This document shows, piece after piece, positions 40,801 to 43,800 of a stretch of 64,000 nucleotides of DNA. The stretch comes from Escherichia coli. Its GTDB lineage: Bacteria > Pseudomonadota > Gammaproteobacteria > Enterobacterales > Enterobacteriaceae. Each line of letters starts with the position of its first letter. Position 1 is the stretch's first letter. Made by a program: the position numbers. The DNA lies in NCBI RefSeq assembly GCF_044324785.1, contig NZ_CP172127.1; one strand, written 5' to 3'.

Positions 40801-43800
40801 TCAATCTGCGTCCAGGCGGCAATTTGTTGTGGTGAATAATGCTGACTGGCTGTCATCGTAACCGCTCTAATGAAAATAGCGCATAGTTGCTGAAAATCGC
40901 CAGGCTGATAGTTTCTTATTTGTATGTTATTCATAATGTAAGTTTTGTTTTGAATACCCGCATCCTTATTCCTTAAAGTCATTGAAATCATCATCCGTCA
41001 TATCATTAAGATATTTTTCAGCGCGGCGTGTAATTTCCTCTAATCTTGCAGCACTTGGACGGAAGCGCGCCTTTATAGGCTTTTTCTCTTCTTGTTCAGC
41101 AAGCATGTCCATTAACGCTTCGAATGCGCTGGCACTTAAGAGATATCCTGCGGGGCGATTATTAGAAAGAACCGCAACTGGTTGATCAATAAAGTATTTA
41201 GCTGGGTTTTTACGTAACTCAGTGATATTGACCGATTTTTCAGCGAGAATTCGATGCATATAGTGATCCCCTCATAATAATGCACACCAGAATATACATA
41301 ATAGTCTACATCATAATCCCAGCACCAGTTGTCTTTCCATTTGAGGGTCAAGCAACGTCACATGCAGCCCCACCAGACGCACACCGCGCCCGCCACGGCG
41401 TTCATCCCAGGTTTTACGCGCGGTGGCGATTAAGTCAGCTTTATTCAGCCGCGGCCAGACATGCTCCTGAGTGGTTTGCTGAAAATCGTCGAACTTTAAT
41501 TTCACTCCCTGACGGGCGATCAGTAAATCAGGTTTCACCTTTGCCAAGCGGCGTTCAAGTTCCGGGTACAGCCGCTCGATAATCGCTTCACATTCAGACC
41601 AGTGATGAATATCTTCCGCCATCGTGCGTTCCACGCCGACGGATTTTCGCAACCGTTCGCTGTTAACGTCGCGCTCGTCAATCCCCTGACTACGCTCCCA
41701 CAAAATGCGGCCAAATTTGCCAAAACGTTTGAGCAGAGTCACCAGATCACACTTTTGCACATCACCGCAGGTCCGCAGCCCCATCGCTTCCAGTTTTGCC
41801 GCCGAGACTTTGCCGACGCCGGGAATTTTTGCCAGCGGTAAGGTTTGCAGAAATGCCGGAACTTCTGCCGGAGTAATCACAAACTGACCGTTGGGTTTAT
41901 TCATGTCGGAAGCAATTTTGGCGAGAAACTTTACCGGCGCAACGCCCGCAGATGCCGTCAGTTGCAGCTCGTTGAAGATCGTCTGACGGATTTCCTGGGC
42001 GATGAGGGTCGCGGAGCCGTGGCAATGCACACTATCGGTGACATCGAGATAGGCTTCATCCAGTGATAACGGTTCAATGCGCGAGGTATAGCGCGAGAAA
42101 ATTTCGCGGATATGATTTGAGGCTTCTTTGTAGGCGTCAAAGCGCCCTGGAAGCAGCGTGAGATGTGGGCATAATTTGAGCGCCATCCCTGTCGGCATAG
42201 CGCTACGTACGCCAAATTTACGCGCGGGATAATTGGCGGTGCTGATCACCCCCCGACGTTCGCGGCTGCCGCCAATAGCAATAGGGATATCGCGCAGGGC
42301 AGGATTGTCGCGCATCTCCACCGCTGCGAAAAAGCAGTCCATATCCACATGAATGATTTTACGCATTGCTCACCTCTCAACACTGGTAAAGTATACAGTG
42401 ATTTCAGAGTTTGAGAAATGCGTAAAGATTCAGCATTTAACGCGTTCGCTGCGAAAGCACCTGCTGCTTATCCAGCTTTTGCACCAGCGGTTGCACCACT
42501 TTATCCCCATGCTGACCAAAGTATTGATATAGCGTATCGGACGCACTTTTGGTCAGCACCATAATCTCAATGCGCCGATTGCCCGCGCTTTGCGGATTTT
42601 TGGCATCCAGCAGCATCTGGTCCGCCATTGCGCTTACCTGCATCACTTTATCTTCCGGCATTCCGGCCTCTTCCAGCACCCGACGGGCCGAAAGCGCGCG
42701 ATCGCCCGAAAGGTTCCAGTTGTTATAGATATTGTTTTTGTAGGCCATCGCATCGGTATGCCCGGTAATAATAATTTTGTTATCGAGCGAGTCGAACACT
42801 GGCGCGAGCTCCACCAGCAAAGTTTTAAAGAACGGCATAATCTGCGCGCTGCCGCGTTCGAACATATTGCGATTCTGGTCGTCTTTAATCAGCACGCGTA
42901 ATCCCTGCGGGACAATCTCCATCTCCAGATTCGCTTCCATATGCGCATCACGGGCAATGGTGTTGATACTGGTTGCCAACTCGCCAAGCTCGGTGGCGGA
43001 TTTCTTCTTCAGCAGCGCCGTTTTCTCATTCACATCACGCGCTTTTTTCTCCGTCTCTTCCGGCACCGCCACGGTGGCAGGTTTTGGCGGATGAGACGGG
43101 CTGATTTTATTTAACGGCGATAGCCCACCACCGTTAAAAATCGACTGCCCGTGCAGCGCGGCGATAATGCTTTCACGCTCGGATTTACTGACGCTGTTGA
43201 CAATCAACTTTATCGTCGTCACCAAAGGGGCCGAGCGTATTTCCGAGGTTTCTGCCCGCTTTACCCTGGACGCGATGCCCGGCAAGCAGATGGCGATTGA
43301 CGCCGACCTTAACGCCGGGTTGATCAACCAGGCGCAGGCGCAAACCCGGCGTAAAGATGTTGCCAGTGAGGCCGATTTCTACGGCGCGATGGACGGGGCA
43401 TCGAAGTTTGTACGCGGGGATGCCATCGCCGGAATGATGATTCTGGCGATCAACCTGATCGGCGGCGTCTGTATCGGGATCTTCAAATACAACCTGAGCG
43501 CCGACGCCGCCTTCCAGCAATATGTGCTGATGACCATCGGCGACGGGCTGGTGGCACAGATCCCTTCCCTGCTGCTCTCCACCGCGGCGGCGATTATTGT
43601 CACCCGCGTCAGCGACAACGGCGATATCGCCCATGACGTGCGCCACCAGCTGCTGGCAAGCCCGTCGGTGCTCTACACCGCTACCGGAATTATGTTTGTG
43701 CTGGCGGTGGTGCCGGGGATGCCGCATCTGCCGTTTTTGCTGTTCAGCGCCCTGCTGGGTTTTACCGGCTGGCGGATGAGCAAACGCCCGCAGGCGGCGG

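What the first reader, a model, noticed from the sequence alone, without database searches (positions are those of the whole stretch)
40934..41310. dinB operon lacks the yafO toxin gene, leaving yafN as an apparent orphan antitoxin
From memory, K-12 has dinB-yafN-yafO-yafP. Here only ~31 bp separate the yafN stop (40966) from the yafP start (40934), so yafO is absent while yafN is intact.
Basis: partly seen in the sequence, partly recalled or inferred. Interest (0 to 1): 0.4.

Follow-up and report, generated by a model that had tools for sequence, protein, structure and literature searches.

The report
yafO toxin deleted; yafN antitoxin orphaned
In this E. coli lineage a clean 379-base deletion has removed the YafO toxin gene from the DNA-damage-inducible dinB operon and left its antitoxin gene yafN intact; this is a rare third version of a known variable operon and an ordinary case of a toxin-antitoxin pair decaying toxin-first.

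Summary
On the minus strand the window carries dinB (42366..41311), intact yafN (41259..40966, 97 aa) and yafP (40934..40482), with 31 bp between yafN and yafP.

Against K-12 there is one clean 379-bp gap. It removes yafO nucleotides 23-399 plus 2 bp, at a TTA(T) microhomology. A 10-codon yafO remnant (MRVFKTKLTL) is left, and its TGA overlaps the yafP ATG.

No yafO is found elsewhere in the window.

Among 5,426 complete E. coli genomes:
- about 52% have dinB-yafN-yafO-yafP;
- about 48% have the published dinB-yafP fusion;
- only 2 share this exact junction.

The junction also occurs in Escherichia sp. E1V33. It is present in all 24 contigs read of the window's own lineage, whose exact YafP was seen on 268 contigs.

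Carriers differ by 2-4% in their flanks. Three of them share a junction-adjacent T>C that no yafO-positive genome showed, so an old allele moved by recombination is more likely than repeated deletion.

The TA module is dead. By inference, YafN is probably still made from the LexA-controlled dinB promoter and from its own autorepressed promoter.

This is biologically ordinary: a new, rare allele of a known polymorphism. Interest is low.

The parts
42383..42417 (-). dinB promoter (TTCTCA-16-TATACT, 42417..42390) with the LexA box CTGTATACTTTACCAG (42398..42383)
   Evidence: Consensus promoter scan and CTG-N10-CAG search. The sequence is identical to the K-12 dinB regulatory region except for one base. 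SOS control of dinB-yafNOP comes from the literature (PMC2814082).
41311..42366 (-). dinB, DNA polymerase IV, 351 aa, intact
   Evidence: ORF. NCBIfam NF002677 547 bits and the Pfam IMS domains. The exact protein is widespread in E. coli.
41260..41339 (-). End of dinB plus the 51-bp dinB-yafN spacer. In K-12 this region holds the proximal yafN promoter, which is autorepressed by YafN.
   Evidence: Promoter-like site TGGAAA-18-TATGAT at 41339..41310 (consensus match only). A proximal YafN-autorepressed, Lon-dependent promoter was shown in K-12 (PMC2814082). The spacer haplotype is identical to that of the four-gene locus L013.
40966..41259 (-). yafN, Phd/YefM-type antitoxin, 97 aa, intact and now without a partner
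   Evidence: ORF. NF007300 YafN equivalog 196.7 bits (cutoff 99) and PF02604 31.5 bits (cutoff 29.8). The protein is identical to the commonest E. coli YafN. It differs from yafO-positive L017 by 5 synonymous and 0 nonsynonymous changes.
40931..40963 (-). yafO remnant: ATG + 9 codons + TGA (MRVFKTKLTL*). The deletion junction lies at 40941|40940. The TGA overlaps the yafP ATG (ATGA). The yafO Shine-Dalgarno sequence (AAGGAA, within 40977..40961) is retained.
   Evidence: Alignment to K-12, translation, coordinates, and tblastn remnant hit 40963..40940.
40938..40938 (-). Junction-adjacent T>C substitution (TTATATT > TTACATT) that marks the E. coli copies of the deletion allele
   Evidence: C in the window, MEI003 and GPT24-02; T in E1V33 and in all 21 four-gene loci sampled. 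A 54-nt probe for a four-gene locus carrying C hit no yafO-positive genome among the 5,426.
40482..40934 (-). yafP, GNAT N-acetyltransferase, 150 aa, intact. There is no Shine-Dalgarno sequence upstream of its start.
   Evidence: ORF. NF007338 321 bits and Pfam Acetyltransf_10. The exact protein was seen on 268 contigs named E. coli.

Best explanation
This is a real, inherited structural allele of the SOS-regulated dinB operon. A single 379-bp deletion between short TTA(T) repeats removed almost all of the toxin gene yafO.

**What is left.** The operon is now dinB - yafN - (10-codon yafO stub) - yafP. The YafN-YafO type II toxin-antitoxin module can no longer act as a toxin, addiction or stress module. 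Loss of the toxin first is the only order of decay a cell tolerates.

**Inferred from K-12 experiments, not tested here.**
- yafN is still transcribed from the LexA-controlled dinB promoter and from its own proximal promoter.
- YafN still represses that proximal promoter and is still degraded by Lon. Its only remaining activity would then be as a labile autorepressor of a promoter that now also reads into yafP.
- yafP has no Shine-Dalgarno sequence. Its translation is probably coupled to termination of the yafO stub, whose TGA overlaps the yafP ATG. The published dinB-yafP fusion has the same ATGA arrangement.

**Origin.** The allele is probably old and has been carried into different backgrounds by homologous recombination, rather than made anew each time.
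For: **Shown**
- There is a clean 379-bp gap against K-12 with intact flanking genes.
- yafO is not elsewhere in the window.
- Independent assemblies are identical, and 24 of 24 lineage contigs share the arrangement.
- The same junction occurs in E. coli MEI003 and GPT24-02 (annotation) and in Escherichia sp. E1V33.
- The sampled loci fall into three discrete length classes: 2264 bp (four-gene), 1885 bp (this allele) and 1505 bp (two-gene).
- YafN is full length in all four carrier lineages. In the window it is identical to the commonest paired YafN, with 5 synonymous and 0 nonsynonymous changes against L017.
- The dinB LexA box and promoter are intact, and no minus-strand terminator is predicted between dinB and yafP.
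- The stub's TGA overlaps the yafP ATG.

**Old allele spread by recombination**
- Carrier flanks differ by 2-4% from each other, and each carrier's nearest neighbours are yafO-positive strains.
- Three carriers nevertheless share a second derived character, the adjacent T>C. It was absent from 21 sampled four-gene loci, and a probe for it hit no yafO-positive genome among the 5,426.
- The window is 100% identical to the four-gene strain 2012C-4221 at 45500-47500 but only 95-96% identical across 40500-45500. That is a mosaic pattern.

**Literature**
- K-12 has two promoters for yafNO; YafN alone represses the proximal one, and activation depends on Lon (PMC2814082).
- The yafNO polymorphism and the ATGA fusion are described in PMC3105422.
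Against: - Expression of YafN, its autorepression and the coupling to yafP are all inferred from K-12 work and sequence. Nothing here measures them.
- The ATGA overlap has a 1-in-3 chance of arising from reading frame alone.
- Sequence close to the junction is too conserved to show a shared imported tract. The window and GPT24-02 are identical over only 157 bp there, and so is K-12 except for the C. Single origin therefore rests mainly on the shared T>C.
- E1V33 lacks the T>C and could be an independent event.
- The rest of the genome could not be searched for a relocated yafO.
Confidence: 0.8

Rival explanations
1. The same deletion arose independently several times at a mutational hotspot, by replication slippage at the TTA(T) repeats just upstream of yafP. 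The carriers are then not related by descent.
For: - Carrier flanks are as different from each other as from K-12, and each carrier's closest yafN and yafP sequences belong to yafO-positive strains.
- E1V33 has the junction without the T>C.
- The published two-gene deletion ends only a few bases away, at an ATTATGA repeat, and was proposed to have occurred at least three times (PMC3105422).
Against: - The microhomology is only 3-4 bp.
- Three carriers share both the identical endpoints and an extra adjacent T>C that no yafO-positive genome among the 5,426 showed. Triple coincidence of two changes is unlikely.
- The allele is very rare (2 of 5,426), which does not fit a hotspot.
Confidence: 0.15
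2. Orphan YafN is kept by selection as an anti-addiction or immunity factor that neutralises YafO-family toxins brought in by plasmids or phages.
For: - YafO-family toxin genes occur on 254 plasmid records and on temperate phages such as HK639 and PhiR40_1.
- yafN is intact in all four carrier lineages and shows only synonymous change in the window.
- Anti-addiction roles for orphan antitoxins are discussed in the literature (PMC10790755).
Against: - The mobile homologues are only 30-39% identical to YafO. Antitoxin-toxin pairing is usually specific at that distance (established knowledge).
- The near-identical plasmid hits appear to be chromosomal segments, for example a 214-kb K-12 record (inference).
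- About 48% of E. coli lack yafN altogether.
- The allele is rare.
Confidence: 0.07
3. yafN here is a functionless relic that simply has not yet decayed. It is not expressed to any effect and is not under selection.
For: - The toxin is gone.
- In half of E. coli both genes are dispensable (PMC3105422).
- MEI003 and E1V33 carry substitutions in the acidic C-terminal tail (D89N, D91E; D90E).
Against: - yafN has no frameshift or stop in any of four carrier lineages whose flanks differ by 2-4%.
- The window shows 0 nonsynonymous against 5 synonymous changes relative to a paired yafN.
- Promoters and start signals are intact.
- The numbers are small, and recombination with yafO-positive strains could refresh the gene.
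Confidence: 0.3
4. yafO has moved elsewhere in the genome, or the gap is an assembly error.
For: Only 64 kb of the genome could be inspected.
Against: - The locus is identical in independent assemblies and in 24 of 24 lineage contigs.
- The same junction is present in two finished genomes annotated by PGAP.
- The window contains no yafO.
- E. coli genomes that have yafO have a median of one copy and at most two.
Confidence: 0.02

Closest known systems
E. coli K-12 dinB-yafN-yafO-yafP operon (four-gene form; YafN-YafO type II TA system)
   Same: Same locus, gene order, LexA box and promoter, same dinB, yafN and yafP genes at 95-98% nucleotide identity, and the same yafO start codon and Shine-Dalgarno sequence.
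   Different: 379 bp carrying yafO codons 8-132 are missing. No toxin is encoded, and yafP now abuts a 10-codon stub.
Two-gene dinB-yafP fusion allele (E. coli CFT073 type; Gutierrez et al. 2011, PMC3105422)
   Same: It is a deletion derivative of the four-gene operon. Its right-hand end lies a few bases upstream of the yafP ATG, and it leaves an upstream ORF's TGA overlapping the yafP ATG as ATGA.
   Different: That allele lost 759 bp, including yafN, and is common: about 48% of complete genomes here and 40-50% in the paper. This allele lost 379 bp, keeps yafN, and is very rare at 2 of 5,426.
Orphan antitoxins of decaying chromosomal TA loci
   Same: The antitoxin gene is intact with no adjacent toxin. 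Such orphans are abundant in E. coli: 73,201 occurrences in 950 genomes (PMC10790755).
   Different: Here the exact deletion event can be reconstructed, and the orphan sits inside an SOS operon upstream of a non-TA gene (yafP) that it may now help regulate (inference).
yafO point-mutation pseudogenes (loci L023 and L025)
   Same: The toxin is inactivated while yafN is intact, in the same operon.
   Different: Those alleles keep the full 399-bp yafO length and have premature stops at codons 66 and 111. They have no deletion.

Membership tests
YafN antitoxin (Phd/YefM superfamily) | Full-length match to the YafN equivalog model and the Phd/YefM antitoxin domain | tested here: met
   NF007300 196.7 bits (cutoff 99) over residues 1-97 of 97. 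PF02604 31.5 bits (cutoff 29.8). Only Q82K differs from K-12, and K82 is the common allele.
YafN-YafO type II toxin-antitoxin system | An adjacent, co-oriented gene encoding a YafO_toxin (PF13957) protein immediately downstream of yafN | tested here: not met
   Only the first 7-8 YafO codons remain, in a 10-codon stub ORF. Related four-gene loci have the 132-aa PF13957 gene at this position.
YafN-YafO type II toxin-antitoxin system | Antitoxin neutralises the toxin, autoregulates its promoter and is Lon-labile | not testable with these tools
   Shown for K-12 (PMC2814082). Here only the conserved sequence of yafN and its upstream region can be shown.
SOS-regulated dinB operon | LexA box overlapping a sigma-70 promoter upstream of dinB, with downstream genes co-oriented and no intervening terminator | tested here: met
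   CTGTATACTTTACCAG at 42398..42383 lies within the promoter-like site 42417..42390. No minus-strand terminator-like site lies between dinB and yafP. These are consensus scans only.
Published dinB operon structural alleles (four-gene / two-gene) | dinB-start to yafP-stop length of 2264 bp (with yafN and yafO) or 1505 bp (dinB TGA fused to the yafP ATG) | tested here: not met
   The window, L002, L003, L004, L015 and L016 are 1885 bp, a third class. The paper reports only two forms.
YafP GNAT N-acetyltransferase | Full-length match to the YafP equivalog model | tested here: met
   NF007338 321.1 bits (cutoff 146) over residues 1-150 of 150. PF13673 69.4 bits.
Antitoxin + GNAT-toxin TA pair (TacAT/AtaRT-like), considered because yafN now directly precedes a GNAT gene | The GNAT gene is toxic and always accompanied by its antitoxin | tested here: not met
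   About 48% of complete E. coli genomes carry yafP fused to dinB with no yafN (PMC3105422). The paper cites evidence that YafP is not a partner of YafN/YafO.

The most novel reading that the evidence does not exclude
The orphan YafN has been kept as a domesticated regulator. It would be a Lon-labile repressor whose proximal promoter now serves only yafN and yafP, so YafP synthesis responds to translational and nutritional stress as well as to SOS. The toxin-free allele would then be an old variant that spreads between Escherichia lineages, including a cryptic species, by recombination because it is mildly advantageous.
Probability: 0.12. Interest if true: 0.45.

Novelty: new member of a known kind. 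Interest (0 to 1): 0.22.

Why it matters
It adds a third, rare structural form to a well-studied polymorphic SOS operon, and the single mutational step can be reconstructed exactly.

It is a clean natural example of toxin-first decay of a toxin-antitoxin pair.

It offers natural strains in which YafN function without YafO, and yafP expression, could be studied without engineering.

The same junction in backgrounds 2-4% apart, including Escherichia sp. E1V33, is a small but tidy marker for recombination across Escherichia lineages.

It does not change how TA systems or the SOS response are understood.

Tried and rejected
- **Search for the same junction.** The scan of JGI metagenome contigs gave 0 hits. 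The scan of GTDB species representatives gave one hit, E1V33.
- **Identifying the source organism.**
  - No complete RefSeq E. coli genome exceeds about 97.5% identity over 30-50 kb of the window, or 96.9% over the dinB segment. I first suspected Shigella or a cryptic clade.
  - The exact YafP protein is labelled E. coli. Strain 2012C-4221 is 100% identical in neighbouring segments. I therefore read the locus as a divergent recombinant segment in an E. coli lineage that has no finished RefSeq genome. Phylogroup was not determined.
- **Exact-protein look-ups** with DinB and YafN were uninformative for lineage, because both proteins are widespread in yafO-positive strains.
- **Singletary et al. 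2009** (PMC2786605) is not held in the library.
- **No solved structure** matches YafN by sequence, so I make no domain-level claim about the C-terminal tail beyond family knowledge.
- **Alternative two-step origin of the junction C.** I considered a slip between the two AACTTA repeats in yafO followed by a second deletion. It is not simpler than a deletion plus a point change, and it cannot be resolved from the data.
- **YafN-YafP as a new TA pair** was rejected (see the membership test).
- **Whole-genome check** that MEI003 and GPT24-02 lack yafO elsewhere could not be done with the tools.

Full report
**1. Observation**

On the minus strand the window encodes:
- dinB, 42366..41311, 351 aa;
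- yafN, 41259..40966, 97 aa;
- yafP, 40934..40482, 150 aa.

Downstream lie an intact rtcB (40164..39025) and prfH. Upstream lies the lafU/lfhA Flag-2 remnant.

MG1655 has dinB-yafN-yafO-yafP in this order. Pfam and NCBIfam confirm the three gene identities with scores well above the curated cutoffs.

**2. Anatomy of the loss**

Alignment with K-12 shows a single clean 379-bp gap in sequence that is otherwise 96-98% identical.

- The gap removes yafO nucleotides 23-399 and the next 2 bp, roughly NC_000913.3 252,323-252,701.
- The endpoints lie in a short direct repeat: AAAAC-TTAT-TCG on the left and GAAT-TTAT-ATTATG on the right. The junction position is therefore ambiguous by 3-4 nt.
- What remains is the yafO Shine-Dalgarno sequence and start codon, then nine codons and a stop: ATG CGG GTA TTC AAA ACA AAA CTT ACA TTA TGA (MRVFKTKLTL*), at 40963..40931.
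- The TGA of this stub overlaps the yafP ATG as ATGA.
- Because 379 is not a multiple of three, the stub reads into a different frame from yafO's original end.

tblastn of YafO against the whole window finds only this remnant.

**3. The deletion is real and inherited**

- An independent assembly (GCA_032695445.1) is 100% identical to the window over 8.45 kb, and another (GCA_028598205.1) is 99.93% identical.
- The window's exact YafP protein occurs on 268 contigs labelled E. coli.
- All 24 contigs read that carry this protein have the same yafN-yafP neighbourhood.

**4. Survey of 5,426 complete RefSeq E. coli genomes**

- yafO DNA is present in 2,844 genomes (52%), with a median of one copy per genome.
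- A 1-kb probe across yafP-yafN-dinB splits the genomes into two groups. About 2,800 cover the probe with an extra 379 bp (the four-gene form). About 2,600 lack yafN as well (the two-gene form).
- These proportions match Gutierrez et al. 2011, who reported 60% four-gene and 40% two-gene among 98 genomes, and 50% two-gene in the ECOR collection. The two-gene form always had an ATGA fusion of dinB to yafP (PMC3105422).
- That paper describes no intermediate form.
- A 48-nt probe that can only seed across the new junction hit just two genomes: MEI003 (Switzerland, environmental) and GPT24-02. PGAP annotates yafN directly followed by yafP in both.
- Among GTDB species representatives the junction occurs once, in Escherichia sp. 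E1V33.
- It was not found in JGI metagenome contigs.
- Extracted dinB-start to yafP-stop lengths fall into three discrete classes: 2264, 1885 and 1505 bp.

**5. One origin or several?**

The four carrier backgrounds (window lineage, MEI003, GPT24-02, E1V33) differ from each other by 2-5% in dinB, yafN and yafP. For each flank, the nearest sampled sequences are yafO-positive strains. Taken alone, this would suggest recurrence.

Three points argue the other way:
- The window, MEI003 and GPT24-02 share a second derived change right at the junction, T>C at window 40938.
- That change is absent from E1V33 and from all 21 four-gene loci sampled.
- A probe for a four-gene locus carrying the C hit no yafO-positive genome in the collection.

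The window is also visibly mosaic. Against the four-gene strain 2012C-4221 it is 100% identical at 45500-47500 and 36500-37000, but only 94-96.6% identical (per 500-bp bin) across 40500-45500. No finished E. coli genome exceeds 96.9% over the dinB-lafU-lfhA segment. The dinB 3' end and spacer haplotype equals that of the four-gene locus L013, yet the two differ inside yafN.

I conclude, with moderate confidence, that the C-type allele arose once and has been moved or re-flanked by homologous recombination. E1V33 carries either its ancestral T-form or an independent event.

**6. Other routes to the same end state**

Two loci of four-gene length have premature stops in yafO, at codon 66 in L023 and codon 111 in L025, with yafN intact. 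Inactivating the toxin while keeping the antitoxin therefore recurs at this locus. This is expected, because loss of the antitoxin first would be lethal (established TA biology).

**7. How it most likely works**

*Shown here*
- The dinB LexA box and promoter are intact (42398..42383 and 42417..42390).
- The genes are co-oriented, with no predicted minus-strand terminator between them.
- yafN, its upstream spacer and its start region are intact. The spacer haplotype also occurs in a yafO-positive strain.

*From K-12 experiments* (PMC2814082)
- yafNO is transcribed both from the SOS-regulated dinB promoter and from a proximal promoter.
- The proximal promoter is repressed by YafN supplied alone and is activated in a Lon-dependent way by translation inhibition or starvation.

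*Inference*
- In this allele YafN is still made, neutralises nothing, and acts only as a labile autorepressor of a promoter that now reads into yafP.
- yafP has no recognisable Shine-Dalgarno sequence in any allele (also noted in PMC3105422).
- Ribosomes that initiate at the preserved yafO start and terminate ten codons later on the ATGA overlap probably reinitiate at yafP.
- The overlap could also be chance, since frame alone gives it one time in three.

**8. Selection on the orphan**

YafN is full length in all four carrier lineages. In the window it equals the commonest YafN of yafO-positive E. coli, with 5 synonymous and 0 nonsynonymous differences from L017.

MEI003 and E1V33 have conservative changes in the acidic C-terminal tail (D89N, D91E; D90E).

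The counts are too small, and recombination too frequent, to claim purifying selection. A neutral relic remains a serious rival.

**9. Rivals considered**

- *Anti-addiction role.* YafO-family toxins exist on 254 plasmid records and a few temperate phages, but at only 30-39% identity. Cross-neutralisation is therefore speculative.
- *YafN plus the GNAT YafP as a new TA pair.* This is rejected, because about half of E. coli carry yafP without yafN.
- *Artefact or relocation.* This is very unlikely, although the whole genome could not be searched.

**10. Verdict**

The finding is correct and its interpretation is supported. It is a rare third structural allele of a known polymorphic operon and a textbook toxin-first decay of a type II TA locus. 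It has minor population-genetic interest, namely the same junction in divergent Escherichia backgrounds. It is a new member of a known kind, and interest is low.

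Noticed in passing
window 45745-45978: The dinJ-yafQ toxin-antitoxin locus, which lies between yafL and dpaA in K-12, is absent. 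233 bp replace about 840 bp, and tblastn finds no DinJ or YafQ in the window. About 2,082 complete E. coli genomes share this empty configuration. The lineage therefore lacks the toxins of both SOS-linked TA loci near dinB.
   Followed up: partly
window 44901-45063: rayT (the REP-associated tyrosine transposase of K-12) is absent. The spacer contains REP-like palindromic GC-rich repeats instead.
   Followed up: no
window 1-~25000: A P22-like prophage (portal, gp10, terminase, ejection proteins, DnaB-like helicase in the best hits) lies beside proA, in place of the K-12 CP4-6 region. The best E. coli matches cover only 62-75% of it, at 96-97% identity.
   Followed up: partly
window 38414-40164: rtcB (379 aa) and prfH (about 204 aa, overlapping the end of rtcB) are intact here. 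In K-12 (ykfJ/prfH), MEI003 and GPT24-02 they are pseudogene fragments.
   Followed up: partly
window 40500-45500 versus 45500-47500: There is sharp mosaicism against E. coli 2012C-4221: 100% identity in some 0.5-2 kb stretches and 94-96.6% (per 500-bp bin) in others. The yafP-dinB-lafU-lfhA-yafL block is a divergent haplotype, with no match above 96.9% over its dinB-lafU-lfhA-yafL portion (41300-45500) among 5,426 complete genomes.
   Followed up: partly
window 40482-40934 (yafP): yafP evolves much faster at the protein level than its neighbours. Against K-12 it has 10 nonsynonymous and 7 synonymous codon differences, while dinB has 1 nonsynonymous and 48 synonymous. E1V33 shows a similar pattern.
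   Followed up: partly
L023 4297-4695; L025 4297-4695: These loci have four-gene length but yafO carries a premature stop (codon 66 in CP164244.1, codon 111 in GCA_024610135.1) while yafN is intact. These are independent toxin-inactivating alleles.
   Followed up: partly
window 40935-40994: The deletion leaves the yafP reading frame open upstream into the 3' end of yafN, with in-frame ATGs at 40994, 40991 and 40982. A 170-aa N-terminally extended YafP is therefore formally possible only in this allele. PGAP calls the 150-aa form.
   Followed up: no
annotation of yafN (NF007300; RefSeq records): NCBIfam and PGAP name YafN a 'type I toxin-antitoxin system antitoxin', although YafN-YafO is a protein-protein (type II) system. 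This looks like a naming slip that has propagated to thousands of genomes.
   Followed up: no
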